Of a stretch of 64,000 nucleotides of DNA, positions 6,927 through 31,099 are shown one piece after another. Position numbers and translations under genes: made by a program. The DNA lies in sequence record MK327931.1; one strand, 5' to 3'. This stretch comes from Escherichia phage vB_EcoM_G17. The notes beneath the pieces are model-generated. The model did not search any database. It worked only from the letters and a program-made list of their open reading frames with translations, and was not told the DNA's origin. Numbering within the stretch: the stretch's first letter is position 1; each line of letters opens with the position of its first letter.

Positions 6927-7202
6927 TTAAGTATTGTAAATGTCGTGAATAGTGATAAAGTTTTTACGACCGTAAACCTGCAAATCAATATCAATGTAGT
7001 GCTTATCTAGTACATCCTCGACGCTTAACGCGGTGTCGTGGATATCTTCGTAGAATTGAGGATCTACAATCTTGCTTAAGTCATCCGGCGTTAACTTATC
7101 GTTAAGCCATTGAACCGCCTGGATATCTGCTTCACGTTTCCAGTCTTCCAGGTTAGTAGTCAGTACTTGTTCGATTTCGTTAGCTGTCAGTAGAATCCGC
7201 AT
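6927..7202 (-). CDS. hypothetical protein (91 aa)
   Basis: Track ORF. Confidence 0.55.
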   Translation of the reverse strand: MRILLTANEIEQVLTTNLEDWKREADIQAVQWLNDKLTPDDLSKIVDPQFYEDIHDTALSVEDVLDKHYIDIDLQVYGRKNFITIHDIYNT

Positions 7203-7517
7203 TTTTATGTTTCCTTATCAGTGGTTGATGTAAGTATTATACTCGTTTACTTTCTATTGTCAAACTATTTTATCAGGGGAGTTTTTCGTATGTCTTACTC
7301 CTGGACTACTTAACAGGGTTACTTATTTCGTTCCCCGTCCTGATGTAAAACATTATACTTGATTCTAAGTACAATGCAAGTACTTTTTTAAAAATAGTTT
7401 TCAGTACTAGCCACCAGCAAACAATAGATACATTTATGCACCCTGTGGGCTGATTTGTTTCTATGCGTATATAATAGCAAAGGGACTGACCGGAGTCAAT
7501 CCCTTTTTCAAATATTT

Positions 7518-7667
7518 TTAAACTTCTTTCGGGTTGCGATAGGTGATAGCGTTCGGGTACATTTGTTTAATGTTATTCCATGCCTGGTTAACATTATAAC
7601 CACTTGAGCGAATCAGTTGGTTACTACCGACACCTTGAAACACTACTTCGAATAAGAATTCTTTCAT
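7518..7667 (-). CDS. hypothetical small protein (49 aa)
   Basis: Hand-translated ORF below track cutoff (MKEFLFEVVFQGV...); start overlaps stop of upstream gene (ATGA). Confidence 0.35.
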   Translation of the reverse strand: MKEFLFEVVFQGVGSNQLIRSSGYNVNQAWNNIKQMYPNAITYRNPKEV

Positions 7668-7837
7668 GCTTTCACCTCGCTATCTGCTTTACCTTTACGC
7701 CAGGACATTACTAATTGTTCGCGTTGCCATAAGTCGAGTGATACAAAAAGTTTTGCGGTATCACTTTTAGGATACTCGCCAGTAGTACCTAACCGATAAA
7801 ACAGATCTTTCAGTACTGATAATTCTACTTGAATCAT
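7664..7837 (-). CDS. hypothetical small protein (57 aa)
   Basis: Hand-translated ORF (MIQVELSVLKDLFYRLG...); ATGA overlaps on both sides. Confidence 0.35.
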   Translation of the reverse strand: MIQVELSVLKDLFYRLGTTGEYPKSDTAKLFVSLDLWQREQLVMSWRKGKADSEVKA

Positions 7838-7926
7838 TTTATTACTCCTGATTGCGTTAATACTTCTACTATTGCATGAATGATCATAAGTACAGCTAAC
7901 ACAATAATCATCGGATTCATTTGCAT
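7834..7926 (-). CDS. hypothetical hydrophobic peptide (30 aa)
   Basis: Hand-translated (MQMNPMIIVLAVLMIIHAIVEV...); AAGGAG SD 8 nt upstream. Confidence 0.3.
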   Translation of the reverse strand: MQMNPMIIVLAVLMIIHAIVEVLTQSGVIK

Positions 7927-7943
7927 AAGCTGTACTCCTTATA

Positions 7944-8156
7944 TTAATCTTTCAGCCAATGATCTTGAATGAATTTTTCACCGTATCCCTGTTTCATGGA
8001 TTCTAACAGGCGTTCGCGGTGAGCGGCGGCATATTGCTCAGTACTATGCGTTACGCCAGGCTGATAACGTGATACCCCATCCGGTCCGATGTATTGTACA
8101 TCCCACGGTTTTTCGTTAGTATCAGACCATTTACGAACGATTAGTTGACCTTGCAT
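7944..8156 (-). CDS. hypothetical protein (70 aa)
   Basis: Track ORF; promoter/hairpin upstream. Confidence 0.55.
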   Translation of the reverse strand: MQGQLIVRKWSDTNEKPWDVQYIGPDGVSRYQPGVTHSTEQYAAAHRERLLESMKQGYGEKFIQDHWLKD

Positions 8157-8239
8157 TTTTCTTTCCTCTCAGTGGGGAGAATCATTTCTCCCCTTCATGT
8201 AACTTATTATACAGTACTAGATTATCTTGTCAATAGTTT

Positions 8240-8563
8240 TTATTCACCTTGTTTGAATTTAGTTTTCTCCATTGATTCCATGATTGCAACCAATACGCTG
8301 TGGATCTCGCTTAACGCGGAATCACTGAAAGCATTAATGAATAGTCGATCATTCTCGCGAATATTTTTAATGTACTTTTCAGCAGTAGTTGCGAATTCAT
8401 TCAACGGTAGATCAAATGCTTTATCCCATGATGGATGGCGTAATTGTAACAGTACTGGATTATCACGATCACCAGGGGAAAACGTACCAGTGATGAAACA
8501 TACGCCCGGAATACTTTCGAACTGGCAACGGACTTCCTTTGTGATAGTAGTATGAATGTACAT
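8240..8563 (-). CDS. hypothetical protein (107 aa)
   Basis: Track ORF. Confidence 0.55.
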   Translation of the reverse strand: MYIHTTITKEVRCQFESIPGVCFITGTFSPGDRDNPVLLQLRHPSWDKAFDLPLNEFATTAEKYIKNIRENDRLFINAFSDSALSEIHSVLVAIMESMEKTKFKQGE

Positions 8564-8590
8564 TTATTGTTATCCTCTATTAAATTAATA

Positions 8591-8779
8591 TTACAGTTTA
8601 TGAATCAATTCTTTATCTAAGCGATAGCGTACATTATTAATAGTAACGGCATTGTTTTTAATGCTACGCTGTACAGGTCCACCAGCAATAACAAATGTTG
8701 CTTTATTACCCCGAACAATGATAGCACTTCCAGGATTACCGAAATCATCTTGTACTAAAATACTTGATAAGTTTTCCAT
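8591..8779 (-). CDS. hypothetical protein (62 aa)
   Basis: Track ORF 8591..8785; second ATG (MENLS) has better SD spacing. Confidence 0.5.
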   Translation of the reverse strand: MENLSSILVQDDFGNPGSAIIVRGNKATFVIAGGPVQRSIKNNAVTINNVRYRLDKELIHKL

Positions 8780-8860
8780 TTTCATTTCCTCTTAGTAGGG
8801 GAAGATGTTTCCCCTTGATGTAAGTACTATAACACTACTGGATAGTACTGTCAATACTTT

Positions 8861-9118
8861 TTATCTCATAGATCTATGCCAACAATTACGCGGGGGACGT
8901 TTAAAAGTACTATCATGATCCTCCTGGCAAGTTATGCAGTACTTACATCCCTTAACAGCCTGGCGGCGATTCTCAGGGATTTTATCGCCACAGTCGAGGC
9001 AATGTATCAGTGATTCTATTTGTGCGTTAATTTGCTTTCTAGCGTGGTTTACGGCGGCCTGAATCACTGCGTTAATCTCGTCTTGTTCGGCCCCGTCTTT
9101 CGCGAATCCTACAGCCAT
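8861..9118 (-). CDS. TraR/DksA-family C4 zinc-finger protein
   Basis: Motif CLDCGDKIPENRRQAVKGCKYCITCQ matches the C-x2-C-G-x2-IPE-x-RR...C-x2-CQ signature of the TraR/DksA family. Confidence 0.65.
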   Translation of the reverse strand: MAVGFAKDGAEQDEINAVIQAAVNHARKQINAQIESLIHCLDCGDKIPENRRQAVKGCKYCITCQEDHDSTFKRPPRNCWHRSMR

Positions 9119-9315
9119 TATTTTAACCTTTTTCTATCATTAATTAATGCTTTCAGTACTATACTAATAACTTGCAATGATTCATCAATGACTATAAAAT
9201 TATTTTCTTTCATTAGATGATAGTTACCATTGATATTATATTCTAACGAGTACTGTTTACGTTTAATTTTTGATAATGTTTCTATTTGTTTTTGTACTGA
9301 TTTCATGCTAATCAT
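9118..9315 (-). CDS. hypothetical protein (65 aa)
   Basis: Track ORF; start shares a base with stop of upstream gene. Confidence 0.5.
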   Translation of the reverse strand: MISMKSVQKQIETLSKIKRKQYSLEYNINGNYHLMKENNFIVIDESLQVISIVLKALINDRKRLK

Positions 9316-9420
9316 TGTTAAACGTCCTGTAACGCATTCTAACGAGATAAACGGTTTAGTACTGGCATTGTATAGGGTAATGAATTAAAGCCCACCAGCG
9401 TTAACCAGTGGGCTATAATC

Positions 9421-9564
9421 TTACATCTTGCGGATAATCTTAACAGTATCTTTCACCGATTTACCGTCTTGCTGGCATTGCTCGATCATTGCGTATTGTT
9501 CTGCGGTCAGATCCTCGCCAGTTTTTGCCAGTACTGCGTCGATGAATGAATCCAGTGCGATCAT
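9421..9564 (-). CDS. hypothetical small protein (47 aa)
   Basis: Hand-translated (MIALDSFIDAVLAKTGEDL...); SD AAGAGAGA; promoter module upstream. Confidence 0.4.
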   Translation of the reverse strand: MIALDSFIDAVLAKTGEDLTAEQYAMIEQCQQDGKSVKDTVKIIRKM

Positions 9565-9663
9565 TTTATTTCTCTCTTAGGTTAAGTTAACTACTGTTTA
9601 TAAAACTTATTATACAGTACTATCAAACGTTGTCAATATATTTAATAGTACTGGTAATATATT

Positions 9664-9843
9664 TTAGCGGTAATCGTCGTATGCTTTATTCACCTGGCGA
9701 ATGTAACTTTCAAAGGCTTCGTCTACCGTTTCATACTCCCGAACATAATCACCATAGGAAACTACATACATACCTTTTTGATCTTCAAACGTCATGATGA
9801 TAGAATCCAGACCAACGATTTCAGTTTTTGCGATGATAGCCAT
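9664..9843 (-). CDS. hypothetical small protein (59 aa)
   Basis: Hand-translated (MAIIAKTEIVGLDSI...); promoter module upstream at about 9850-9910. Confidence 0.4.
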   Translation of the reverse strand: MAIIAKTEIVGLDSIIMTFEDQKGMYVVSYGDYVREYETVDEAFESYIRQVNKAYDDYR

Positions 9844-9936
9844 TTTTTTAATTCCTTAGTAGTGTAGTTGATAAAACTTATTATGCCAGTACTATCAATC
9901 ATTGTCAATAGCTTTGATAGTACTGTGATAATATTT

Positions 9937-10149
9937 TTAGTTAATGATAGTCAGTGTAAAATTGTAATCACCACAGCGATATAGCACGTTATTCCCAAAT
10001 GTTCCAACTAATCGCACATCACACAAAACGCCGGTTTTTTCTTTTACTTCCTTGATACTTGTAACTCCTGTAATATCTTTATTAAAGTATTCATGATCTG
10101 AAAATAAAACTTGTTTTGCATTTTTTAATTTCGACCGGATATTAGCCAT
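9937..10149 (-). CDS. hypothetical protein (70 aa)
   Basis: Track ORF; promoter/hairpin upstream. Confidence 0.55.
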   Translation of the reverse strand: MANIRSKLKNAKQVLFSDHEYFNKDITGVTSIKEVKEKTGVLCDVRLVGTFGNNVLYRCGDYNFTLTIIN

Positions 10150-10244
10150 TTTGTTTTCTCTCTGTTAGTGGGGAGAAGTTTTTCTCCCCTTGATGTAAAC
10201 TATTATACAGTACTATAATCTATTGTCAAACTATTTTTTTTATA

Positions 10245-10586
10245 TTATTCGAAATCTTCTGGACCGGACTGATAATCATCTTCACCGTATGCACTTTCTA
10301 ACTTCTCGCCAGTGTGGTCATCAGTTAGTGAGTCATCCTCATAGTTCACGTCTACGCCAGTGATGTAAAACTGGCTATCGTCTGGATCATTGAAATTAAT
10401 TTTCTGTATGTTTACAATAACTGTATTGATGCCCAGGACACCGCCATCAGCCGTTACAAAGTACTGATATTTTTCACAACCGCCTGAATTGAAACCGTAA
10501 TTAATTTCGGCCCGACCATCATTTAAACGCAGTGCCTGAGCGATGATTTCATTTTCAAAGTTAGATTGAGCAATTGAGATAGTCAT
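10245..10586 (-). CDS. hypothetical acidic protein (113 aa)
   Basis: Track ORF; promoter/hairpin upstream. Confidence 0.6.
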   Translation of the reverse strand: MTISIAQSNFENEIIAQALRLNDGRAEINYGFNSGGCEKYQYFVTADGGVLGINTVIVNIQKINFNDPDDSQFYITGVDVNYEDDSLTDDHTGEKLESAYGEDDYQSGPEDFE

Positions 10587-10796
10587 GATTTGTTTCCTTA
10601 TTACCAGGGGAAACCGTTTCCCCTTTCGATGTAAAACATTATACGCTTATTGAGATAGTTTGCAAGTACTTTTTAAAAATAGTTTTCAGTACTCAAACAT
10701 TATACAATAGATACACTCCTGCACCCTGTGGGCTAGTGAGCTATCTCTCAATGAATATATAATAGCAAAATGGCTGACCGAAGTCAACCACTTTTT

Positions 10797-10934
10797 TCAT
10801 TTATTTTTAGCTTTTAGAATCGCCGCCTTTCGTGTCATTCCTTGTTTGATGTACTCCTTTACTTTCGCTTTTTTAGCGTTTACCTTGTCTGCTTTCGTTT
10901 TAGGAGTACTGTAAATTATACCGTTAGGATTCAT
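10797..10934 (-). CDS. hypothetical lysine-rich small protein (45 aa)
   Basis: Hand-translated; TAAATG junction with upstream small ORF. Confidence 0.3.
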   Translation of the reverse strand: MNPNGIIYSTPKTKADKVNAKKAKVKEYIKQGMTRKAAILKAKNK

Positions 10935-11024
10935 TTAAATCACCATAAAGAATAGATAGGTTACTAACAACGCCGCGATCAATGCACCGACCAGGGCCGA
11001 ACTATAGTAAGCTAATGTTTTCAT
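10935..11024 (-). CDS. hypothetical membrane peptide (29 aa)
   Basis: Hand-translated (MKTLAYYSSALVGALIAALLV...); hydrophobic. Confidence 0.3.
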   Translation of the reverse strand: MKTLAYYSSALVGALIAALLVTYLFFMVI

Positions 11025-18983: not shown

Positions 18984-19764
18984 CGTATTAATCTCTTTTA
19001 AAGTGTAGCGGGAAGTGTTCCCGCTCTCGATGTAAAACATTATACGCCTTTAAACATAGTTTGCAAGTACTTTCTACATGTACTTTTAAAATAGTTTTCT
19101 TTCTATATAGGGGAACTATCATTCAGTACTATTATTCAGTACTGAATCAACCAAATCACTACTACACCCCATAAAACGGCCTCAGACGCATTCTAACGCA
19201 TTAATACACCTAAGCTATACATTTGCACCATTCCAATCATTCCAGGGCTTTACGGGCCGTTTAAACGCGTTAAATTATTTTCAATTATTTTGTTTTTAGC
19301 TATTGACTCAGTACAGAAAAAGCGTATAATTACTACATAGACGCGAGAAAGCGGAAACCCCAGAGGGTGCGGAATTACGCCCAAAATTCAAGATATAAAA
19401 AAAGGATACACTCCCGCACCCTAGCAGGTAAACGCACTTTCTCAGTACTGAAATATAGTACCATAGTCCGGCCCAGGATAGCAAGCAAATTAATTAAAAC
19501 TTTTTTGCTTCCAGGGTATTGCTTTATTTTTTCAGTACTGTATAATAGTTCCATCAAGTCGAGAAAGACTCAAGCCCACCGGGTGCATAGTTACGCCCAA
19601 AATTCAGTACTGAAAAAATTTTTAAAAATATCCGTCCAGGCCGTTGACATTGCCCCCAGTTTATAAGATAATGATTCCAGATTCAGAAAAATCTAACTCC
19701 AGATACTGCGGGGAAACTATCCCCACGCGGTAGGGGAACTATTGGAAAAAACAAAATAAAATTT

Positions 19765-19880
19765 TGATTTAGCCGTCTATACTTCCAGACGTGTAACCAT
19801 CTAGCCGTTTAGCCGTCCAAACGTCTAGCCATCCAGAAATCTAGCCGTCTAGATGGATAGCCATCTTTACTTCCAGACTT
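19765..19880. repeat. iteron cluster: six copies of TAGCC(G/A)T and two of CTTCCAGAC
   Basis: Read directly: tagccgtc at about 19770, 19802, 19809, 19825 (tagccatc), 19841, 19857; no ORF. Confidence 0.6.
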
Positions 19881-20868
19881 CTGGAGGGCTAGACATATCT
19901 ACGCCCAAAATCCATCCAGGGTAACTACACCCAAAATCCGTCAGTACTATACCATAGATCTATCTTTTGAAAGGGAGTATTCAGTACTGCCATCATAGCC
20001 CTCACTATGTTACCCTAGGAGGATGAAGACCATCATGTAGTACTGAATACTGTTAGAGGGAATCCACCAGCACAAGCTGGTGGTATAATGCTTTAGATTA
20101 AAATCAGTACTGACACCATTCTGTTAATATCAGTACTGTTATTACGATTTTCATATGAGGTTCAAAAAGATGTACCACCACAGGAGGAACTATCTTTTCT
20201 GTACTGTCTCACGACAGGAGGTAGAGTAAATGAATTGTTCGCAGCAACTCATCACCCCTTGAAGCTATGTAGAACATTATACAGTACTGAATCATAATGT
20301 CAATAGCTTTCTTTCATTATTCAGTACTGATATTCTTGAGAACTACCCGACTACAAACATCATTATATCCCACAAATCATAAACGTCCCAACGTAAATTT
20401 CAACTTTCGAAGATCCAACTTTTATTTCATAGGTACTCCAAAATTTTTAGGATCGAGATTTAGGATGGAGTACTAACCAACTTTTTGCTGGAGCCTCAAG
20501 GGGTAATTGAATTTTACCCCGAAGGGTAAAAGGGTAATTGTAATTAAGGTGAAAGTAATAATTCAGTACTAATCATTGCGTGATTACTTTTGATTACATT
20601 TGATGTAATTTGCAAAATGGAAAAGGAGCTTGGAAACTACAAAGTACGGCAGACTTCCTCTGCCTACTTAGTGGCATATCAGTACTGAATCATTCACACA
20701 CATTTCCGTGCATTCTTGTCTATACTAATCAGTACTGAATCATATATAATCATTCTGTGATTCTACGGTGCTCATATAAATGTTTATATATGATTACTTA
20801 TGACTACCTATGATTACGGGGTTTAGCCTGGGGAGAATCCTAGTGATCGCATTTGTCCAGGCTGAATT

Positions 20869-20891
20869 TTAACATATGCAACATATGTTAA
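20869..20891. promoter_or_regulatory. perfect palindrome TTAACATATG-caa-CATATGTTAA (candidate dimeric-protein binding site)
   Basis: 10 bp arms, perfect inverted repeat, in non-coding DNA downstream of the small-protein operon. Confidence 0.45.
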
Positions 20892-20933
20892 AGCCTGTAT
20901 AATGCTTCCACTACGGAGCTTCCCCTAGCTATA

Positions 20934-21140: not shown

Positions 21141-21323
21141 TTAATATGATAGTACTAGTGTTAGTACTGAGCACAATTGTTCTTTGTAGTTCTTAGGGTA
21201 TATAGAATCTTTTATGCACTCATTGAAGTGCCATAGGTATAATCTTGGGTCGCATTCTTTATATATTCTTACGGGGACGAATGTTAGTTTTCTTATATAG
21301 AATTCTTTATGTTCTTTATTCAT
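21141..21323 (-). CDS. MHKEYY-family small protein (member 2)
   Basis: 60 aa; MNKEHKEFY...FNECI. Confidence 0.6.
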   Translation of the reverse strand: MNKEHKEFYIRKLTFVPVRIYKECDPRLYLWHFNECIKDSIYPKNYKEQLCSVLTLVLSY

Positions 21324-21328
21324 ATTAG

Positions 21329-21514
21329 TTAGTGTCTGTATATAAGTAATAGTAAGAATACGTACTGCACATCTTCATCTTTAGTATTGAGTACTGTACG
21401 TATTGCGTCATGGAACAAGAATATAGTACTTGGGTCATGAAAATTTAAAGGGGTTCTGGGTACGGCATGTTTGTAGTTCCCTTTAACAAATTGTGTGTAG
21501 TATTCTCTATGCAT
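21329..21514 (-). CDS. MHKEYY-family small protein (member 3)
   Basis: 61 aa; MHREYY...LLLLIYRH. Confidence 0.6.
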   Translation of the reverse strand: MHREYYTQFVKGNYKHAVPRTPLNFHDPSTIFLFHDAIRTVLNTKDEDVQYVFLLLLIYRH

Positions 21515-21515
21515 A

Positions 21516-21701
21516 TTAGTACCTATATATTAGGGCGAGAATGTAGTACAATTCATATGGAATGTAATTTGGGGTGATCGCACACTGTGTATGGTAAATG
21601 AATTGTTCGGTATTTTTCTTATCCTTGATATCTATTGGGATTAGTGGTATAAGCATTTGGGAGTTTAGATCCAGATGGCTTAAGTAGAATTCTTTATGCA
21701 T
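21516..21701 (-). CDS. MHKEYY-family small protein (member 4)
   Basis: 61 aa; MHKEFY...ILALIYRY. Confidence 0.6.
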   Translation of the reverse strand: MHKEFYLSHLDLNSQMLIPLIPIDIKDKKNTEQFIYHTQCAITPNYIPYELYYILALIYRY

Positions 21702-21710
21702 ATTGTTCTC

Positions 21711-21899
21711 TTAGAATACGAAAGCTAGGTACAGGGTATGATACAGTACTCGATGGTAGCTGTCAAAATCTAGTATACATGCTTTAGTGCACATAGTAAA
21801 ATACACTTTATCATTTTGTGCATTGATACCGCGAGGTTTATCTAATAGATTAGTTCTGAGGTACATTGGGAAATATTTTGTGTAGTATTCTTTATGCAT
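21711..21899 (-). CDS. MHKEYY-family small protein (member 5)
   Basis: Track ORF 21711..21944 trimmed to internal MHKEYY start. Confidence 0.55.
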   Translation of the reverse strand: MHKEYYTKYFPMYLRTNLLDKPRGINAQNDKVYFTMCTKACILDFDSYHRVLYHTLYLAFVF

Positions 21900-21900
21900 G

Positions 21901-22083
21901 TTAGTACCTGAATATAAGTAGGATAGTGTTATATAGCTGGTCATAACTACTACTATTTTCTATACTTCGTTCTATGCAGTTATTGAATCCCAGTACTGCC
22001 AAATCGTTATCCAGAGGGACTTTATATCTGGCGTAGTGTACAAAAATGCTGGGGAGAAATTGTGTGTAGTATTCTTTGTGCAT
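21901..22083 (-). CDS. MHKEYY-family small protein (member 6)
   Basis: 60 aa; MHKEYYTQF...FNNCI...LLIFRY. Confidence 0.6.
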   Translation of the reverse strand: MHKEYYTQFLPSIFVHYARYKVPLDNDLAVLGFNNCIERSIENSSSYDQLYNTILLIFRY

Positions 22084-25039: not shown

Positions 25040-26176
25040 ATGTTACCTTTTGTTAGAATGTTAAATTATGGGAACGTAGCACCAGAAAAACTAAAAGTTC
25101 GTGATATTGTTGCAGGTGCTAATTCATTATTACTAATAACCGAGGATAATGAATTATGGGTGCGTGGTAATAATTCGTATGGCAAATTAGGTATAGGAAC
25201 TGATACTATAGTGAATGTAACCGAGTGGACTAAAGTTAGAGATGATGTTAAGTTTGCTTGTGCTAGTAATTTAGTATGCGTTGTATTAACTGTAGATAAT
25301 AAAATTTTCTACTGTGGTGATGAATGGTTTGAATCTGGTGGTTCGACAAGTTCTAAAGTTGTTACATGGAAAGATGTTACGACACAATTTAGTGCAGTGA
25401 ATCTAAGCACAGTACGTGAAATGAAAATGACTTCTTATTGTGTAGGATTACTTACAAATGATAATAGATTATATGCTAAAGGATATGATAATAACCAATC
25501 ATTTGGTGGTTCAACAAGCAAAGTTAATGCTGTATTAGTTGCGTCAAATGTTTCAAAATTCTACACTTCTCTATCTGGTACTATATATTCTAGTACTACT
25601 GGTGGTTACTACCGCTGTGGTATAAGCAATACTGGAGCATTGGGTACTAGCACAAATTTAACTTCTTATAATTTGTACTCTGCTCCCGAATTTGCATCCG
25701 AATGTGCAGTTGGTATGTCAACATTAAACTCTGGTATATTATATTATGATACTAATGGTAGCACTAGATATGTTATAGCAGGTCAAAATAGATATTATCA
25801 ACTAGGTAATTCTTCTTCAAATACCACAAACGTATATTCGTATACAGAATTAACCGGATATAGAGGCAGGTTTAGGGATTTGTGGAGTGATATGAATAAC
25901 TCTGTTCTTTCTTTTGCTATAAGCACAGATGGCAATACTTTATATTATGCTGGTACTAACACTACACTATCTTCTGGTGACCCTGGTGTTGAATATTCAT
26001 CTACATTTAAAGAAGTACCACACGGGTTTAATGATATAACAAAGGCGGCATCGTTAGCCTATCTATCTATAGTGCAAGATTCAACGGGATGGTATTATTC
26101 TGGAAATGCAACTACGTTATATGGTTTGCCATCGAGTGATGAATTTATACCATTACCATTACCAACAATAATTTAA
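25040..26176 (+). CDS. MLPF-family RCC1-like repeat protein R1
   Basis: N-terminus MLPFVRMLNYGNVAP; repeated G-x-N-x-(Y/G)-(G/Q)-LG-x-G motifs (NNSYGKLGIGT, QNRYYQLGNSS); start trimmed from 25022 to the ATG with AAGGAGGG SD. Confidence 0.7.
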   Translation: MLPFVRMLNYGNVAPEKLKVRDIVAGANSLLLITEDNELWVRGNNSYGKLGIGTDTIVNVTEWTKVRDDVKFACASNLVCVVLTVDNKIFYCGDEWFESGGSTSSKVVTWKDVTTQFSAVNLSTVREMKMTSYCVGLLTNDNRLYAKGYDNNQSFGGSTSKVNAVLVASNVSKFYTSLSGTIYSSTTGGYYRCGISNTGALGTSTNLTSYNLYSAPEFASECAVGMSTLNSGILYYDTNGSTRYVIAGQNRYYQLGNSSSNTTNVYSYTELTGYRGRFRDLWSDMNNSVLSFAISTDGNTLYYAGTNTTLSSGDPGVEYSSTFKEVPHGFNDITKAASLAYLSIVQDSTGWYYSGNATTLYGLPSSDEFIPLPLPTII

Positions 26177-26182
26177 ATACAG

Positions 26183-26211
26183 GCCAGTACTTGATACTGG
26201 CTTTTCTTTTT
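26183..26211 (+). terminator. Rho-independent terminator after R1 (GCCAGTA-N5-TACTGGC plus T-run)
   Basis: Inverted repeat followed by ttttctttttt; next promoter -10 TATAAT at 26226-26231. Confidence 0.6.
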
Positions 26212-26247
26212 TGTATTAAATATAGTATAATGAATAAGGAGGGAAAT

Positions 26248-27450
26248 ATGTTACCTTTTGGAAGAATGGTTAAGTACGCAAATATTGCACCAGGTCCAGA
26301 ACCTGTAGAGTTCTCAGATGTTTTACAACAACATTATACAAACTGTATGTATCTCCATAACCCAACTAATACTTTATATGGTTATGGTAGTAATAACTTT
26401 TACCAATTTGGTCTTGGGAATTCAGCAGCAGTTTCGTCATTTACAGTACTTGCAAGGAACTGTGCAGCCTTTTGGCTTGGTGTTCAAGGTTCATTGATGA
26501 TTGATTTGGATAATAAAATATACTACACTGGGTCGGTTGGTGCATTTTCTGATTATGGAGATGCAACACCTGTTAATGGTTATTTGACAACATGGACTGA
26601 TGTTACTGTTGCATTTAATAAAATAGGTGTTATGGCTAATATGATCAAGAGTGTATATATAGGTGAAAGTACTAGAATATTATTAACCGATGGTAGAGTA
26701 ATTGCGTGTGGAAGAAATACTAATGGTGAATGTGGCTCTGGTAATAAAAATTCCATCCCTACACTCACAGTTATGACTAATATGGGTGAAGTTACACATA
26801 TGGCATGTTCATTACAAGGAACGCACTATATCAAATCAAATAAAGATGCATGGTTTTGTGGTAAGGATAACTTTGGTGAAAGTGGATGTGGTGGTAGTTT
26901 TGTTGTATATTTGAACAAATTCGTGATTAGTAATGTAGAACATATTAGTACTACATACGATGTTACTTGGTGGTTTACTACTGGTGGGCCTGTATATTAT
27001 AGCGGGGCTAACAGTTCTGGACAAGCTGGTAATGGTACGACTACATCGGTAAATCAGCTAACACCAATTAGGAACACATCGGTCACGGTTGATGTAAGTA
27101 AGTACAGTACTTTTATTTGTCCAAGTAATATGGGAAATGCATCAATTGGTGCACCTATGGCACAATACGCACCATATGTTAGAAGTAGTGGTGCTAACTC
27201 ATATGGTCAAGAAGGTAATGGAACTAATACATTAGTTAGAACTTGGAATATTTTTAATCTTAGTGCAATAAGTGGTGGTTATGACAATGTTCTTATGGCA
27301 TCTAAAGATTGGAGCAGAACCATAATAATTACTAAAGATTATAAATTATATGCATGTGGTGGCTGGAATGGTAGTGGTGGTAGATTACCTGATGGCACTT
27401 ATAGTATTACTACACTAACATTAATGCCAACGCAGTTATGGCAACAATAG
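26248..27450 (+). CDS. MLPF-family RCC1-like repeat protein R2
   Basis: MLPFGRMVKYANIAP; motifs SNNFYQFGLGN, RNTNGECGSGN, ANSYGQEGNGT; start trimmed from 26191. Confidence 0.7.
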   Translation: MLPFGRMVKYANIAPGPEPVEFSDVLQQHYTNCMYLHNPTNTLYGYGSNNFYQFGLGNSAAVSSFTVLARNCAAFWLGVQGSLMIDLDNKIYYTGSVGAFSDYGDATPVNGYLTTWTDVTVAFNKIGVMANMIKSVYIGESTRILLTDGRVIACGRNTNGECGSGNKNSIPTLTVMTNMGEVTHMACSLQGTHYIKSNKDAWFCGKDNFGESGCGGSFVVYLNKFVISNVEHISTTYDVTWWFTTGGPVYYSGANSSGQAGNGTTTSVNQLTPIRNTSVTVDVSKYSTFICPSNMGNASIGAPMAQYAPYVRSSGANSYGQEGNGTNTLVRTWNIFNLSAISGGYDNVLMASKDWSRTIIITKDYKLYACGGWNGSGGRLPDGTYSITTLTLMPTQLWQQ

Positions 27451-27458
27451 GAGGGAAT

Positions 27459-28568
27459 ATGTTACCTTTTGGAAGAATGATTAGGTATGGAAATATTGTC
27501 CCTGGTCCTAAAAAAATAATTAAAGTTGGTGCTTCTACCCAAGGCCAATTCTTATTGACTGATTCACATGATTTATATTACATAGGTAGAAATCAAGGTG
27601 GTGAATCTGGAAATGGTAATACCAACACGGTGTCTTCGTGGACATTAGTAAGTGCAGATGTTTCTAATTTTTTCGTGGGTGATCGTACACTTGTTATTAT
27701 TAAAAATGATAATACGATATGGACATCAGGTCAAACGTACTGGTTCTCATCTTCTACAACTACTTCTTACAGTACTGTATTAGTTGAAAGAACTAATTGG
27801 TTTACCAATGCTATACCAGTAAGTGAAATTGCTAATATTGTATGCACAAATGGTTTAATATTTGTACTTAGCACTAATTCAGTACTCTATGGTGCAGGAG
27901 ATAATGGATATCGTGGTTCTTTGGGTATTGGTTCATCATCAATTTACACATTAACTCAATGTGCTACGAACGTTCGTAAAGTAATGACCAATGCGAATGA
28001 TAGTATGTATCTTACATTAGATAATAAGCTATATAGTTCTGGATGGAATAGTAGTGGGCAGCATGGTACGGGGAACCAAACACAAATTAACACTTGGGGA
28101 TTGCGTAGTTCTGGTGTAATCGATGCAGCCATTGGTGGTAATGCATTAAATTACTATAATGGTACATCATATTTCGTATGTGGTCAAACTCCAAACTTTC
28201 TTAGTTCAGGTACGACTACATTCCGTGCAGTTCCTTTAAGTACTTTGCCTAATAGTTCTCCATTGTTTATGACGAATTCACCTGCCTTAAATACTGCTAC
28301 ACAAATGGTAATTACTAGTACATATCAGAAGGGTGTTGGGGCGAACCGTGGTTTGGGATTAAACAATTCTCAAACTGGTGCTATATATAGTGCTACCAAT
28401 TTACAATTACCCGTTGAAGTTAGTGAGATTAGGGATGTTCTTTTTAGTGATGGTTTGACATCGATATTAACCAAAAATGGAGACGTGTATAGTACTGGAT
28501 CGTATTACGCCATTCCAGGTGCAATCGAGGATGTTGCAGTCTTTACTAAAATTGATTTACCAAAATAA
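27459..28568 (+). CDS. MLPF-family RCC1-like repeat protein R3
   Basis: MLPFGRMIRYGNIVP; motifs RNQGGESGNGN, DNGYRGSLGIG, WNSSGQHGTGN; no terminator between R2 and R3 (co-transcribed). Confidence 0.7.
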   Translation: MLPFGRMIRYGNIVPGPKKIIKVGASTQGQFLLTDSHDLYYIGRNQGGESGNGNTNTVSSWTLVSADVSNFFVGDRTLVIIKNDNTIWTSGQTYWFSSSTTTSYSTVLVERTNWFTNAIPVSEIANIVCTNGLIFVLSTNSVLYGAGDNGYRGSLGIGSSSIYTLTQCATNVRKVMTNANDSMYLTLDNKLYSSGWNSSGQHGTGNQTQINTWGLRSSGVIDAAIGGNALNYYNGTSYFVCGQTPNFLSSGTTTFRAVPLSTLPNSSPLFMTNSPALNTATQMVITSTYQKGVGANRGLGLNNSQTGAIYSATNLQLPVEVSEIRDVLFSDGLTSILTKNGDVYSTGSYYAIPGAIEDVAVFTKIDLPK

Positions 28569-28574
28569 CATAAT

Positions 28575-28604
28575 GCCAGTACTCTGTACTGGCTTTCTTA
28601 TTTG
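28575..28604 (+). terminator. Rho-independent terminator after R3
   Basis: GCCAGTAC-tct-GTACTGGC then T-rich tract. Confidence 0.6.
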
Positions 28605-28638
28605 TATTAAATATAGTATAATGAATAAAGGAGGGAAT

Positions 28639-29808
28639 ATGTTACCTTTTGGAAGAATGATTAAGTACGGAAATATTGCACCTGCTAAACCAAATATTAA
28701 AAAAATACTTGCTAACAACTATAATGTTGCTGTTTTAACAAACAGTGGTGATTTATATGTGCGTGGTGAGAATGCAAATGGTCTTTTGGGTTTAGGTCAC
28801 AAAAATACTGTTACTACATGGACTTATAGTACTTCTGGTGTTCAAGATTTTTGGATGGGAGCCACGACGATAGTTCTTAAGAAAAGCAATGATGAAATAT
28901 GGTACAGTGGAAGTTCAACAACTGTTGGTATGAAAGGGGCAGCAGTATCAATATGGACTTCTGCTATGCCAACATTCGATACATTAACATTACCAATATT
29001 AGATATAGCAGTTAGTTATCAGACTACAAGTGTGTTACTGTCAGACCAAACAATATGGAGTACTGGAGTGGGGTCAGATGGTCAGTTGGGTGATGGGACA
29101 ACAACTAACAATATTGCTGGTAAATTCGTCAAAAGTACTGTTCCGGCCGCAGCAAATCAATTACCTGTTAAATTGTTTGCAAGTAATTTAATGCACGGTT
29201 ATGTTACAAACCAAGGATGGCTATTTTATACAGGAAGAGTAAATGCAGTTACAAGTTCAGGAAGTAAGTTATATACTATATATTATGGTGCTCCTACCAG
29301 CTTAAGAAATACAATTAATATCAAGTACTACACGGAGAATGGTACTTCAATGGCAATGGCAATTGGTACTGATCCAAATGGAAAAACCATCATCGCAAAT
29401 GGCGGTTCGAGAATATTTGGTGCACAAGCAGATGGGACAAATGGTTCTCTCAATGATTATAGAGCATTTGAGGTTCAAACTGCTTCACTAATGCCACCCG
29501 GTGATGTAGTAAGCATTGCTAACAATACTTCATATTATAACCAAGTTATTGCTACAACAGATGGTATATATTGTTGCGGCTACAATCAATCTTCAGAAGC
29601 TGGTATGTTAGGTATTGGTACATCTACCAATGCATTGGTATATACCAAAGCAATCGTGCCTGATGGGTTTGATTATAGTAAGTCGCAGATGGCAGGTGGG
29701 TATAACCGAACTTATATAACTGATGGTAATTTTGTATATAGCACAGGGACAAATGTCACATATGGTGGCGTTAGTAGCTTAGAATTTGTATTAGATTCAC
29801 CAGTTTAA
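28639..29808 (+). CDS. MLPF-family RCC1-like repeat protein R4
   Basis: MLPFGRMIKYGNIAP; motifs ENANGLLGLGH, VGSDGQLGDGT, YNQSSEAGMLGIGT; start trimmed from 28477. Confidence 0.7.
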   Translation: MLPFGRMIKYGNIAPAKPNIKKILANNYNVAVLTNSGDLYVRGENANGLLGLGHKNTVTTWTYSTSGVQDFWMGATTIVLKKSNDEIWYSGSSTTVGMKGAAVSIWTSAMPTFDTLTLPILDIAVSYQTTSVLLSDQTIWSTGVGSDGQLGDGTTTNNIAGKFVKSTVPAAANQLPVKLFASNLMHGYVTNQGWLFYTGRVNAVTSSGSKLYTIYYGAPTSLRNTINIKYYTENGTSMAMAIGTDPNGKTIIANGGSRIFGAQADGTNGSLNDYRAFEVQTASLMPPGDVVSIANNTSYYNQVIATTDGIYCCGYNQSSEAGMLGIGTSTNALVYTKAIVPDGFDYSKSQMAGGYNRTYITDGNFVYSTGTNVTYGGVSSLEFVLDSPV

Positions 29809-29814
29809 ATATAT

Positions 29815-29845
29815 GCCAGTACTCTGTACTGGCATTCTTATTTGT
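29815..29845 (+). terminator. Rho-independent terminator after R4
   Basis: GCCAGTAC-tct-GTACTGGC then attcttatttg. Confidence 0.55.
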
Positions 29846-29879
29846 ATTAAATATAGTATAATGAATAAAGGAGGGAAAT

Positions 29880-31028
29880 ATGTTACCTTTTGCAAGAATG
29901 ATGAATTATGGGAATATTGCCCCTGGTAAGGATAGGCGTTTTAAAATATATTCAAGTGATTCTATGTATCTTCATGATACTTATACTAATAAGTTGTATG
30001 CATCTTCTGCGACGAATTGGGGTACTGGAACAGGTGTAGCATCGAGTAAATTTATTCTTTGTGCAGAGAATGTTAAACGAGTTCTATTGGAAGATAACAG
30101 TAGTAGTTGTCAATTGTATGAAGAGAAAGGTACTGGAAAAGTTTTTATCACTGGTAACACGAAGGCATTCACTGGTGTAACTGATACAAAAACTTTGTGG
30201 ACGGACTGTACTACGTGGATAACATCAGGTGGTATTAATGTTTCTGATATAAAATACATGAGTAGTTTTAATGATATGAAGGTGAATTTGATAACAAACG
30301 ATGGTACGTTGTATTGTTGTGGAGTTAACAATAACTCGAACCTATCATCATTTGGTGATGGTACAAACATTAATTCTTTTAACACATTCAAAAGGGTAGA
30401 TACTATAACTTCGGTTAAAAAGGCAGTTGGTAACATATACCTAAAAGAAGATAATACTTTATGGGGTTGTGGTTTTAACTATTACTATCAGTTAGGTACA
30501 GGTAATCAAACTTCTATTACTGGGGTGACGATGATTGCTTCGGATGTTATAGATTTTGATGTAAGTTATCAAAGTACATTTTTTATTAAATCGGATAATA
30601 ATTTGTACGCTTGTGGTAAACAGTTCGGTGCACAATACGGGAACGAATTTGGCACAGGTGGTACTTCTTCATCTACCGATATACAATACAAAACTCCGAC
30701 ATTATTGAGTTCAGGAGTTTATACTCTATATACTTGTGTTAGTAACATGGCATCACATATAGCTAAAGGTGATGAAGTTCTATACGCATCTGGGTCGAAT
30801 GGATTTGGTCAATTAGGTGTTGGTAATAATATTAATCAGTACTCATATACTCCTTCGTATACTTCGTTTAATAGTTCGTGTAATTTGGTACGCACTCCAT
30901 CTGGTTCACTTATACTTACGGACACTGAGCAATTATATTATTGTGGGTATGCTATGGTAGTAATGGGGGGAATTGCTGGACAAAACATTCTTAGTTATAC
31001 AGAAGTTGATATGTCATTTATACAATGA
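29880..31028 (+). CDS. MLPF-family RCC1-like repeat protein R5
   Basis: MLPFARMMNYGNIAP; motifs FNYYYQLGTGN, SNGFGQLGVGN. Confidence 0.7.
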   Translation: MLPFARMMNYGNIAPGKDRRFKIYSSDSMYLHDTYTNKLYASSATNWGTGTGVASSKFILCAENVKRVLLEDNSSSCQLYEEKGTGKVFITGNTKAFTGVTDTKTLWTDCTTWITSGGINVSDIKYMSSFNDMKVNLITNDGTLYCCGVNNNSNLSSFGDGTNINSFNTFKRVDTITSVKKAVGNIYLKEDNTLWGCGFNYYYQLGTGNQTSITGVTMIASDVIDFDVSYQSTFFIKSDNNLYACGKQFGAQYGNEFGTGGTSSSTDIQYKTPTLLSSGVYTLYTCVSNMASHIAKGDEVLYASGSNGFGQLGVGNNINQYSYTPSYTSFNSSCNLVRTPSGSLILTDTEQLYYCGYAMVVMGGIAGQNILSYTEVDMSFIQ

Positions 31029-31034
31029 TTTAAT

Positions 31035-31063
31035 GCCAGTACACTGTACTGGCTTTCTTATTT
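31035..31063 (+). terminator. Rho-independent terminator after R5
   Basis: GCCAGTAC-act-GTACTGGC then T-rich tract. Confidence 0.6.
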
Positions 31064-31099
31064 GTATTAAATATAGTATAATGAATAAAGGAGGAATTT

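What the first reader, a model, noticed from the sequence alone, without database searches (positions are those of the whole stretch)
8861..9118. Phage-encoded TraR/DksA-type zinc-finger protein among early genes
The motif CLDCGDKIPENRRQAVKGCKYCITCQ matches the C4 zinc-finger signature of TraR/DksA-family proteins, which bind the RNA polymerase secondary channel. In an early-gene cluster this suggests a host-transcription-modulating factor, possibly linked to the promoter-regulon described above.
Basis: established knowledge. Interest (0 to 1): 0.5.

Follow-up and report, generated by a model that had tools for sequence, protein, structure and literature searches.

The report
Phage YbiI-type DksA/TraR zinc-finger protein
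The flagged stretch is a real, well-conserved small gene of the E. coli jumbo phage Sharanji that encodes a DksA/TraR-family zinc-finger protein, most likely a factor that binds the host RNA polymerase; the same gene is already annotated this way in sister phages, so it is largely ordinary.

Summary
Window 8861..9118 (minus strand) is an 85-aa ORF, Sharanji_gp077, labelled "hypothetical protein" in its own record. Residues 40-65 carry the quoted CxxC…CxxC motif and hit Pfam PF01258 at 45 bits (cut-off 24.9).

The gene is under purifying selection (dN/dS about 0.1). It is single-copy and sits in a 22-kb run of small minus-strand ORFs with 20 near-consensus sigma-70 promoters, against 0.5 expected.

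It is not a classical TraR. Its best relatives are E. coli YbiI (PDB 2KGO) and YbiI-type proteins of T4-like phages. The RNAP rim/Si3 contact motif I-P-E-x-R-R is invariant, and the predicted fold is TraR-like.

The N-terminal DxxDxA motif is only half present (D8-G9-A10, with F/W where the first Asp would be). The clade also has an invariant extra C-terminal tail, PRNCWHRSMR.

The most likely function, inferred and not shown, is an RNAP secondary-channel binder that reprogrammes host transcription. Early timing is also inferred.

Identical or near-identical proteins are already annotated "DksA-like zinc-finger protein" in phages ph0011 and 121Q, and 979 phage records carry relatives. Interest is low to moderate. 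The only open point is what the uncharacterised YbiI-type termini do.

The parts
8861..9118 (-). CDS Sharanji_gp077, 85 aa plus stop: YbiI-type DksA/TraR-family C4 zinc-finger protein
   Evidence: ORF. PF01258 at 45 bits, phrog_54, NF008243 YbiI-family model at 82.8 bits. dN/dS about 0.1. Annotated CDS.
9083..9118 (-). Codons 1-12, MAVGFAKDGAEQ: the clade-defining N-terminal tip, including D8-G9-A10
   Evidence: Mean identity is 97% in 38 phage-clade sequences, higher than in the Zn domain. The tip is shared with bacterial YbiI proteins. The AF2 helix starts at residue 5.
8924..9001 (-). Codons 40-65: C4 zinc-binding domain (C40, C43, C61, C64)
   Evidence: The four Cys are invariant. The Pfam match covers residues 39-68.
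8963..8980 (-). Codons 47-52, I-P-E-N-R-R: counterpart of TraR I44-P45-E46-A47-R48-R49 (rim-helix and beta' Si3 contacts)
   Evidence: I47, R51 and R52 are invariant; P48 and E49 are at least 90% conserved. The roles of TraR R48/R49/E46 are taken from PMC9239242 and PMC6970531.
8864..8905 (-). Codons 72-85, FKRPPRNCWHRSMR: C-terminal tail specific to the YbiI-type clade and absent from TraR
   Evidence: Mean identity is 94% in the phage clade. The homologous bacterial tail is (Y)NRRGSKDSQLR, and P0065 carries an intermediate form, NRKVWHRSMR. The AF2 model has low confidence and no regular structure here. The tail also hits phrog_25948.
9127..9130 (-). Shine-Dalgarno AAGG, 8 nt upstream of the ATG
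   Evidence: Read directly from the sequence.
9118..9315 (-). Upstream 65-aa ORF gp078 (phrog_36844, unknown function); its TAA overlaps the gp077 ATG (TAATG), implying co-transcription and translational coupling
   Evidence: The direct fusion is specific to Sharanji-type genomes: 121Q has about 317 bp (a promoter copy plus gene 293) in between.
9385..9420 (-). Stable conserved stem-loop between gp079 and gp078, followed by UUUAAUU: a possible partial terminator or RNA-processing site upstream of the gp078-gp077 pair
   Evidence: MFE is -20.6 kcal/mol, z=-6.5. The sequence is identical in 121Q and E9.1.
9609..9636 (-). Nearest upstream perfect sigma-70 consensus promoter (TTGACA-16-TATAAT) with an AT-rich discriminator AAGTTTTA. 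It drives gp079 and, by read-through, probably gp078-gp077
8826..8854 (-). Next promoter (TTGACA-17-TATAGT), starting 7 nt after the gp077 stop codon. It marks the 3' boundary of the gp077 cassette and serves gp076

Best explanation
gp077 is a small single-helix member of the DksA/TraR family, of the YbiI type. It is probably made early in infection from host sigma-70-driven transcription, co-translated with gp078. The proposed mechanism is TraR-like. The zinc-bound globular domain docks on the beta' rim helices and Si3 at the mouth of the RNA polymerase secondary channel, through the invariant I-P-E-x-R-R surface. The 27-residue N-terminal helix runs down the channel and places its near-invariant tip (AVGFAKDGAEQ, with D8-G9-A10 as the counterpart of TraR D6-x-A8) next to the active site. 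The short C-terminal helix and the conserved basic tail contact the beta lobe/Si1 side. Binding would change open-complex kinetics without ppGpp. Host promoters that form short-lived open complexes (rRNA and ribosomal-protein promoters) would be depressed. The phage's own near-consensus promoters with AT-rich discriminators would be spared, so polymerase and resources shift towards the phage. Shown here: gene reality, family membership, fold class, conservation pattern and promoter context. Inferred: RNAP binding, direction of the effect, and timing.
For: - **Family and fold.** PF01258 scores above its cut-off. The best Foldseek PDB hits are YbiI 2KGO and TraR bound to RNAP (6N57_M, TMt 0.63, rmsd 3.9 over 68 columns; 5W1S_M), followed by DksA-RNAP. 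The AF2 topology is H5-31, Zn knuckle, H62-71. This parallels TraR_N 2-27, TraR_G 28-57 and TraR_C 58-73.
- **RNAP-contact residues.** The counterparts of TraR P45, E46, R48 and R49 are invariant or nearly so (I47, P48, E49, R51, R52). In TraR, R48 contacts the rim helices and R49/E46 contact Si3.
- **Tip.** D8-G9-A10 is at least 90% conserved. D8 lies 31 residues (YbiI) or 32 (phage) before the first Cys, against 31 for TraR D6.
- **Termini.** The termini are the most constrained parts, at 97% and 94% identity, against 72% for the Zn domain. This fits contact with an extremely conserved target.
- **Function of relatives.** All five TraR homologues tested bound RNAP and inhibited rrn and r-protein promoters, including two with imperfect DxxDxA motifs (PMC9239242). 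YbiI itself is reported to rescue the amino-acid auxotrophy of a dksA null when over-expressed, though only as data not shown (PMC2613031).
- **Phage biology.** Sharanji encodes its own RpoD-type sigma factor (WNN14470.1), which the paper suggests associates with host RNA polymerase to transcribe phage genes (PMC11895373).
- **Setting.** 20 near-consensus sigma-70 promoters occur against 0.5 expected, with discriminators of 27% GC.
- **Selection.** Purifying selection is strong.
Against: - The full DxxDxA motif, described as critical for TraR/DksA function, is absent: an aromatic F/W5 stands where the first Asp would be. Some C4 zinc-finger relatives that lack the motif do not work like DksA.
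- The curated TraR-subfamily and YbiI equivalog models score below their cut-offs: 52.8 against 59.7, and 82.8 against 96.
- No YbiI-type protein has published biochemistry. [quoted passage not shown]
- The register between D8 and TraR D6 is uncertain by one residue in the phage clade. HMMER aligns with an offset of 3, and BLASTP aligns differently again.
- AF2 confidence is only moderate (pLDDT 73.6), and the termini are low.
- Early expression is not shown. No sigma-70 promoter lies directly upstream of gp078-gp077, and a -20.6 kcal/mol hairpin intervenes.
Confidence: 0.6

Rival explanations
1. gp077 binds the secondary channel but acts mainly as a passive competitor or plug. It would exclude host DksA/ppGpp, GreA/GreB or host YbiI, for example to blunt a stringent-response-type shutdown during infection, rather than exerting TraR-like allosteric control of initiation.
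For: The rim-binding IPExRR surface is conserved, while the acidic DxxDxA tip is incomplete: F/W5 replaces the first Asp. Other secondary-channel binders such as Rnk act by competition.
Against: The N-terminal tip is the most conserved part of the protein (97%). A mere plug anchored at the rim would not be expected to show this. YbiI reportedly substitutes for DksA in vivo, which implies a positive DksA-like activity.
Confidence: 0.15
2. gp077 and the YbiI clade have a target other than RNA polymerase, such as a metal/iron-linked role as once suggested for YbiI, or binding to another conserved host machine through the invariant N-terminal and C-terminal peptides. The zinc finger would serve only as a scaffold.
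For: The invariant termini (MAxGF/WAKDGA… and …RNCWHRSMR / NRRGSKDSQLR) have no counterpart in TraR or DksA. The authors who found YbiI favoured an iron-metabolism role. Some C4 proteins of this family do not act like DksA. The curated equivalog cut-offs are not reached.
Against: The neighbourhoods of bacterial homologues are not conserved and not iron-related in the two cases examined: trpE–ybiI–selO–trpGDC, and a Gcw_chp neighbour. The exact TraR residues that contact RNAP are invariant. The best structural matches are TraR in its RNAP complexes. A strictly lytic phage has little obvious use for an iron-homeostasis factor.
Confidence: 0.2
3. The ORF is a chance or decaying reading frame, or the real gene is on the plus strand.
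For: The record labels it only 'hypothetical protein'. Short plus-strand ORFs overlap it.
Against: dN/dS is 0.08-0.12 in the minus-strand frame, and the full-length protein is about 70% identical in T4-like phages although synonymous sites are saturated. 58 full-length homologues were found. A Shine-Dalgarno sequence and start/stop coupling are present. The profile hits are strong.
Confidence: 0.01

Closest known systems
E. coli YbiI (b0803; NMR structure PDB 2KGO), NCBIfam NF008243 'DksA/TraR family C4-type zinc finger protein'
   Same: The two align over the full length (residues 1-82, 39% identity; PDB phmmer E=1.6e-12). They share the N-terminal signature MAxG(F/W)A.D.A..(E/Q)QI, the IPxxRR motif, the C4 spacing and similar size (85 vs 88 aa). 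Both have a conserved C-terminal tail ending in R.
   Different: The phage clade has E11 where bacterial proteins have V11, which gives D8-x-x-E11. Its helix-to-finger linker is one residue longer. Its tail has a different sequence (FKRxPRNCWHRSMR vs GYNRRGSKDSQLR). It scores 82.8 bits, below the equivalog cut-off of 96. YbiI's own function is not established.
F-plasmid TraR (PDB 5W1S, 6N57/6N58 with RNAP)
   Same: Both are single-helix DksA-family proteins of similar size. The three-element topology is the same (N-helix, Zn globular domain, C-helix). The counterparts of P45, E46, R48 and R49 are conserved. Identity is 36% over residues 11-65.
   Different: There is no D3xxD6xA8; only a D-G-A half-motif with F5 in the place of D3. 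There are three more residues before the first Cys, a 14-residue extra tail, and a shorter predicted C-helix of 10 residues. The TraR models are below cut-off: TIGR02419 at 52.8 against 59.7, NF010268 at 31.2 against 108.
Phage TraR homologues with demonstrated activity: lambda Orf73, P2 Orf82, VHML Orf8, VP882 Orf61 (PMC9239242)
   Same: These are phage-encoded small C4 proteins that reprogramme host RNAP. gp077 is 45% identical to a lambda-type Orf73 over residues 28-74. They sit among small early or accessory ORFs.
   Different: Those come from temperate phages and carry the DxxDxA tip; the lambda-type Orf73 encoded by phage HK630 reads MADIIDSASE. gp077 is in a 350-kb phage annotated without any sign of lysogeny, and its N-terminus does not align with theirs.
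Orthologues already in GenBank: 121Q gp294 'DksA-like zinc-finger protein', ph0011 'DksA C4-type domain-containing protein', and proteins of T4-like phages Moon, Marfa, JS10 ('hypothetical protein PA4870'), SP18, MHG19 and fHe-Yen9-01
   Same: Identity is 94-100% within Asteriusvirus and 62-74% in T4-like phages, with full-length collinearity and identical N- and C-terminal motifs.
   Different: Only the cassette context differs. Sharanji lacks the neighbouring GNAT acetyltransferase and gene 293 of 121Q. In T4-likes the gene lies in the tk–rI–mobD region.
DksA (E. coli, 151 aa)
   Same: Both have a C4 zinc finger of PF01258, and DksA is a secondary-channel binder.
   Different: gp077 has no two-helix coiled coil and no C-terminal ppGpp-site helix. 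The DksA equivalog models score 11-16 bits against cut-offs above 105.

Membership tests
DksA/TraR C4 zinc-finger superfamily (Pfam PF01258) | Profile match above the gathering threshold, with four Cys in CxxC-N17-CxxC | tested here: met
   45 bits against 24.9, E=1.1e-11, residues 39-68. C40, C43, C61 and C64 are invariant in 57 homologues.
YbiI family (NCBIfam NF008243 equivalog) | Whole-protein score above the curated cut-off | tested here: not met
   It is the best-scoring NCBIfam model (82.8 bits, residues 1-72 on profile 1-71 of 88) but falls below the cut-off of 96. gp077 is a close relative, not an equivalog.
YbiI family | N-terminal signature MAxG(F/W)AxDGA.Q and a conserved basic C-terminal tail ending in R | tested here: met
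   Alignments A1 and A2. 84 of the 150 best 50%-cluster representatives share the N-terminal signature. Tail homology is bridged by P0065. These features were derived here from alignments and are not a published definition.
TraR family sensu Gopalkrishnan et al. (PMC9239242) | DxxDxA motif at the tip of the N-terminal helix | tested here: not met
   Residues 3-8 are VGFAKD. Only D8-G9-A10 is conserved, at the distance from the finger expected for TraR D6-x-A8, and F/W5 occupies the D3 position. The lambda-type Orf73 used for comparison has D3xxD6xA8.
TraR family | Globular-domain residues equivalent to R48 (rim helices) and R49/E46 (beta' Si3) | tested here: met
   R51 and R52 are invariant, E49 and P48 at least 90% conserved, I47 invariant.
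TraR family | C-terminal helix after the second CxxC (beta lobe/Si1 contact) | tested here: inconclusive
   AF2 predicts helix 62-71 at pLDDT about 85, dropping to about 65. It is shorter than TraR_C 58-73 and is followed by a low-confidence tail.
TraR family | Curated subfamily/equivalog profile (TIGR02419; NF010268) | tested here: not met
   52.8 against 59.7, and 31.2 against 108.
TraR family | Binds RNAP in the secondary channel and regulates initiation without ppGpp | not testable with these tools
   This needs biochemistry. The only indirect support is the report that YbiI complements a dksA null, given as 'data not shown'.
DksA proper | Two-helix coiled coil with DxxDxA at its tip, ppGpp site-2 residues, about 150 aa | tested here: not met
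   There is a single N-terminal helix and the protein is 85 aa. TIGR02420 scores 11.5 against 115.5, and NF033459 scores 16.2 against 105.
Phage early gene | Transcribed by unmodified host sigma-70 RNAP soon after infection | tested here: inconclusive
   The region is packed with consensus sigma-70 promoters. The nearest one upstream (9636-9609) is separated from gp078-gp077 by a -20.6 kcal/mol hairpin. The Sharanji paper's hits for promoter, sigma and RNA polymerase gave no expression data; I did not search it or other papers for transcriptomics.

The most novel reading that the evidence does not exclude
YbiI-type proteins, bacterial and phage, may be a mechanistically distinct third class of secondary-channel factors. 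In this reading an aromatic/Gly-rich N-terminal peptide (A-x-G-F/W-A-K-D-G-A) replaces the di-acidic tip and reaches about three residues further towards the active centre than TraR does. An invariant basic C-terminal tail would make a contact that TraR lacks. Lytic T4-like and Asteriusvirus phages would have captured and retuned this host factor (V11 to E, new tail PRNCWHRSMR) to control RNAP differently from TraR, for example by favouring holoenzyme carrying the phage's own RpoD-like sigma factor.
Probability: 0.2. Interest if true: 0.5.

Novelty: already known. Interest (0 to 1): 0.25.

Why it matters
If gp077 works as inferred, it extends TraR-style, ppGpp-independent reprogramming of host RNA polymerase to new phage groups. 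So far this has been shown only for a conjugative plasmid and for temperate-phage or prophage-derived homologues. The new groups would be large, apparently strictly lytic phages (Asteriusvirus jumbo phages and several T4-like genera). These use host core polymerase throughout infection.

It also offers a convenient handle on the unstudied YbiI branch of the family. The two termini are more conserved than the zinc finger itself, which predicts clear mutant phenotypes. In practical terms, the Sharanji record could be re-annotated from 'hypothetical protein' to 'DksA/TraR-family (YbiI-type) zinc-finger protein'. None of this overturns current understanding.

Tried and rejected
- **Genomic context of bacterial YbiI homologues.** Two long contigs showed unrelated neighbourhoods, so they give no functional clue.
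- **Literature.** I searched for YbiI, PA4870 and DksA-like proteins of lytic or jumbo phages. Only one 'data not shown' sentence on YbiI turned up. The Sharanji paper and the jumbo-phage comparative paper do not mention DksA or TraR.
- **Base composition as a sign of recent capture from the host.** The gene's GC is 46.5% against 39.6±4.2% for neighbours. That is within their range (maximum 46.9%), so I rejected it as evidence.
- **A dedicated sigma-70 promoter directly upstream of gp078-gp077.** None was found. The alignment of the intergenic region with 121Q and E9.1 is 97% identical and so uninformative.
- **A second DksA/TraR paralogue in the window.** A six-frame hmmsearch with the family profile found only this ORF. 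tblastn finds one place per Asteriusvirus genome.
- **Plus-strand ORFs overlapping the locus.** They have no support, and selection acts on the minus-strand frame.
- **A second metal site** formed by C79/H81 of the tail with C58/H68. I considered this and set it aside, because C58 and H68 are only about 53% conserved.
- **A DNA-binding regulator of the AGTACT-containing promoters.** I rejected this as the lead hypothesis. The family acts on RNAP, not DNA, and no DNA-binding domain is present.

Full report
**Where the window comes from.** Window 7000-11000 is 100% identical to Escherichia phage Sharanji (OR545507.1; record position = window position + 15777). Sharanji is a 350-kb Asteriusvirus related to 121Q and PBECO4. 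[quoted passage not shown] It does not mention any DksA/TraR protein (PMC11895373).

**The observation.** An ATG-started ORF of 85 aa lies at 8861..9118 on the minus strand. It is the annotated CDS Sharanji_gp077 (WNN14365.1, 'hypothetical protein'). The quoted motif is residues 40-65.
- Pfam PF01258 (zf-dskA_traR): E=1.1e-11, 45 bits against a cut-off of 24.9.
- PHROG phrog_54, 'DksA-like zinc-finger protein': E=4.9e-19.
- An AAGG Shine-Dalgarno sequence sits 8 nt before the ATG.
- The ATG overlaps the stop codon of the upstream 65-aa ORF gp078 (TAATG).

**Is it a real gene?** Nei-Gojobori dN/dS is 0.093 against 121Q, 0.078 against E9.1, and 0.124 between the Marfa and JS10 orthologues. Synonymous sites are saturated between Asteriusvirus and T4-like phages, although the proteins are about 70% identical over their full length. 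A six-frame profile search finds no second copy in the window.

**Which branch of the family?** The protein is closer to E. coli YbiI than to TraR.
- YbiI (PDB 2KGO) is the best solved relative (1.6e-12) and aligns from residue 1. TraR (5W1S, 6N57) aligns only from residue 18, at 9e-6.
- Among NCBIfam models, the YbiI equivalog NF008243 scores best but below its cut-off (82.8 against 96). The TraR subfamily TIGR02419 scores 52.8 against 59.7. The TraR and DksA equivalogs are far below their cut-offs.
- BLASTP gives 39% identity to YbiI over residues 1-82, 45% to a lambda-type Orf73 over 28-74 only, and 36% to TraR over 11-65.

**Relatives in the large databases.**
- The 5.8-billion-protein search returned 58 relatives. 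One group is a phage clade of 84-87 aa at 62-98% identity: Asteriusvirus plus T4-like phages Moon, MHG19, fHe-Yen9-01, RZ, JS10 and SP18. The other is a bacterial clade of 88 aa at 49-62% identity.
- The phmmer scan of 1.84 billion representatives gave 609 hits at E≤1e-3. Of the 150 best, 84 have the YbiI-type N-terminus MAxG(F/W). Another 21 have the TraR-type DxxDxA N-terminus (24 carry the motif in all, counting 3 of the YbiI-type group). A third group begins MSGYGGPDDE and ends KMLTKML.
- tblastn finds relatives in 979 phage records. The 100%-identical protein of phage ph0011 is annotated 'DksA C4-type domain-containing protein', and 121Q gp294 'DksA-like zinc-finger protein'.

**Anatomy.** Across 57 sequences the invariant positions are M1, A2, G4, R27, C40, C43, I47, R51, R52, G57, C61, C64, Q65, D69 and R77. 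Mean identity by segment in the 38 phage-clade sequences:

| Segment | Mean identity |
|---|---|
| Residues 1-12 | 97% |
| Helix body | 67% |
| Zinc domain | 72% |
| Tail 72-85 | 94% |

The two termini are therefore more constrained than the zinc finger. AlphaFold2 (57-sequence alignment, mean pLDDT 73.6) predicts helix 5-31, a zinc knuckle, a short helix 49-54, helix 62-71, and an unstructured, low-confidence tail. Foldseek against the PDB returns YbiI, then TraR in its RNAP complexes (6N57_M, TM 0.63; 5W1S_M), then DksA-type proteins. This parallels the published TraR division into an N-helix (2-27), a globular domain (28-57) and a C-helix (58-73) (PMC6970531).

**Testing against the features that define functional TraR homologues (PMC9239242).**
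1. *DxxDxA tip: not met as such.* Residues 3-8 are VGFAKD. D8-G9-A10 is at least 90% conserved. D8 lies 31 (YbiI) or 32 (phage) residues before the first Cys, against 31 for TraR D6. D-G-A is therefore plausibly the D6-x-A8 half of the motif, with F/W5 where D3 would be. The register is uncertain by one residue, and the alignment programs disagree. The phage clade additionally has an invariant E11 where bacteria have V11, which gives D8-x-x-E11.
2. *Rim-helix and Si3 contact residues: met.* I47-P48-E49-x-R51-R52 corresponds to TraR I44-P45-E46-x-R48-R49.
3. *C-terminal helix: present in the model but short.* It is followed by a clade-specific tail, FKRxPRNCWHRSMR. The bacterial tail (Y)NRRGSKDSQLR is homologous, and P0065 carries an intermediate form.

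The paper notes that two homologues with imperfect DxxDxA still worked, though less well. It also notes that some C4 proteins lacking the motif do not act like DksA. For YbiI there is only one report, given as 'data not shown': over-expression rescues the auxotrophy of ΔdksA but not of ΔrelA ΔspoT (PMC2613031).

**Setting.**
- All annotated genes from window 153 to 24937 are on the minus strand, and nearly all are short and of unknown function.
- The minus strand of window 1-22000 carries 20 matches of at least 11/12 to TTGACA-N16/17-TATAAT, against 0.5±0.7 in shuffles. Most share a spacer ending in AGTACTG. Their 8-nt discriminators average 27% GC.
- This pattern fits an early region read by host sigma-70 holoenzyme. 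From established knowledge of DksA/TraR-sensitive promoters, which have GC-rich discriminators and short-lived open complexes, such promoters would be expected to resist TraR-like inhibition. That step is an inference.
- The nearest consensus promoter upstream of gp077 is at 9636-9609, in front of gp079. A stable, conserved hairpin (-20.6 kcal/mol, z=-6.5) lies between gp079 and gp078. No sigma-70-like promoter lies directly upstream of gp078. Early timing is therefore likely but not shown.
- Compared with 121Q, Sharanji lacks about 317 bp (a promoter copy plus gene 293) just upstream of the gene. It also lacks the GNAT acetyltransferase gene just downstream, and it carries an extra DUF7247 gene. 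The zinc-finger gene is the conserved element in a field of shuffled promoter-plus-ORF cassettes.
- In T4-like phages the orthologue lies in the tk–rI–mobD region.

**Most likely mechanism (confidence about 0.6).** gp077 is probably a ppGpp-independent binder of the RNAP secondary channel.
- *How it would dock.* It would anchor on the β′ rim helices and Si3 through IPExRR and send its N-helix to the active-site region. The C-helix and tail would touch the β lobe/Si1 side.
- *What that would do.* Initiation kinetics would change so that host rRNA and ribosomal-protein promoters are depressed while the phage's strong, AT-discriminator promoters continue to fire.
- *What is shown and what is inferred.* Shown here: gene reality, family, fold class, conservation of the contact residues, and promoter context. 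Inferred: binding, direction of the effect, and timing.

**Rivals.**
- A channel plug that only competes with DksA or the Gre factors (0.15).
- A non-RNAP target engaged through the unusual termini (0.2).
- An artefactual ORF (about 0.01, refuted).

The contexts of bacterial homologues gave no support for an iron-related role.

**Novelty and score.** However, identical or near-identical proteins already carry this annotation in public records, and relatives occur in nearly a thousand phage genomes. I rate the finding 'already known' and score interest at 0.25. The residual interest lies in the uncharacterised YbiI-type termini and in the presence of such a factor in apparently strictly lytic large phages.

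Noticed in passing
window 1-22000, minus strand (e.g. 9636-9609, 8233-8206, 10229-10202, 7263-7236, 3308-3281, 3802-3775): There are 20 near-perfect sigma-70 promoters (TTGACA-16/17-TATAAT) against 0.5 expected. Most share an extended consensus: ...AAGTA TTGACA AAGTATnnnAGTACTG TATAAT AGTTTACA.
   Followed up: partly
window minus strand 1485-1458, 4237-4210, 7506-7479, 10794-10767, 43920-43893, 45334-45307, 46616-46589, 51111-51084, 53988-53961: A repeated 28-nt palindromic hairpin, AAAGGGnTTGACTyCGGTCAGnCCCTTT, has a stem containing a -35-like TTGACT and is immediately followed by (T)GCTAT(A/T)AT. It looks like a fused terminator-promoter module, present in at least nine copies. It also reads as a terminator on the plus strand.
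   Followed up: partly
window 9385-9420 (minus strand): A stable stem-loop (-20.6 kcal/mol, z=-6.5) followed by UUUAAUU lies between gp079 and gp078. It is identical in 121Q and E9.1. It could be a leaky terminator or an RNA-processing/stability element that governs expression of gp078-gp077.
   Followed up: partly
window 8240-9130 compared with L009 (121Q 145432-148686): There is cassette-level mosaicism around the zinc-finger gene. Sharanji lacks 121Q gene 293 together with a promoter copy (about 317 bp), and it lacks the GNAT acetyltransferase gene 295 (about 430 bp). It carries an extra DUF7247 gene (8240..8563). The junctions fall at repeated promoter/RBS sequences.
   Followed up: partly
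L002:1414-1581 (Escherichia phage DCP548, Mosigvirus): A 55-aa ORF next to the antiholin gene keeps only the C-terminal half of the protein (…YCVGCQSMHDEIFKREPRNCWHRSMR) behind an unrelated acidic N-terminus. This is phrog_25948. It is either a remnant or a re-used tail module.
   Followed up: partly
L011:1501-1716 (Klebsiella phage RaK2, JQ513383.1 198265-198480): A tblastn match at 37% identity over residues 1-73 falls in a stretch with no annotated feature, between ORF263 and ORF264. It is probably an unannotated DksA/TraR-like gene in RaK2.
   Followed up: no
proteins P0073, P0086, P0108, P0113, P0117, P0120, P0123, P0139, P0146, P0173: A third class of small DksA/TraR zinc-finger proteins has its own conserved termini: N-terminus MSGY(G/A)GPDDE… and C-terminus …(K/R)MLT(K/N)ML. 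It is distinct from both the TraR type (DxxDxA) and the YbiI type.
   Followed up: no
window 25040-32000+ (plus strand; gp106-gp111): At least five consecutive genes of about 380-400 aa are divergent paralogues (25-45% pairwise identity). All are annotated as hypothetical.
   Followed up: partly
window 21141-22083 (minus strand) and 19040-20930: A run of tightly packed ORFs of about 60-77 aa (21141..21323, 21329..21514, 21516..21701, 21711..21944, 21901..22083) is not annotated in the Sharanji record. The 19.0-20.9 kb stretch also has no annotated gene.
   Followed up: no
L010:764-1150 (Klebsiella phage Marfa gp097) and L003:1597-1980 (JS10 rI.-1/MobD.6): In T4-like phages the YbiI-type gene lies two genes downstream of a protein that Marfa annotates as 'starvation-inducible transcriptional regulator'. 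The two could be a functional pair acting on host transcription.
   Followed up: no
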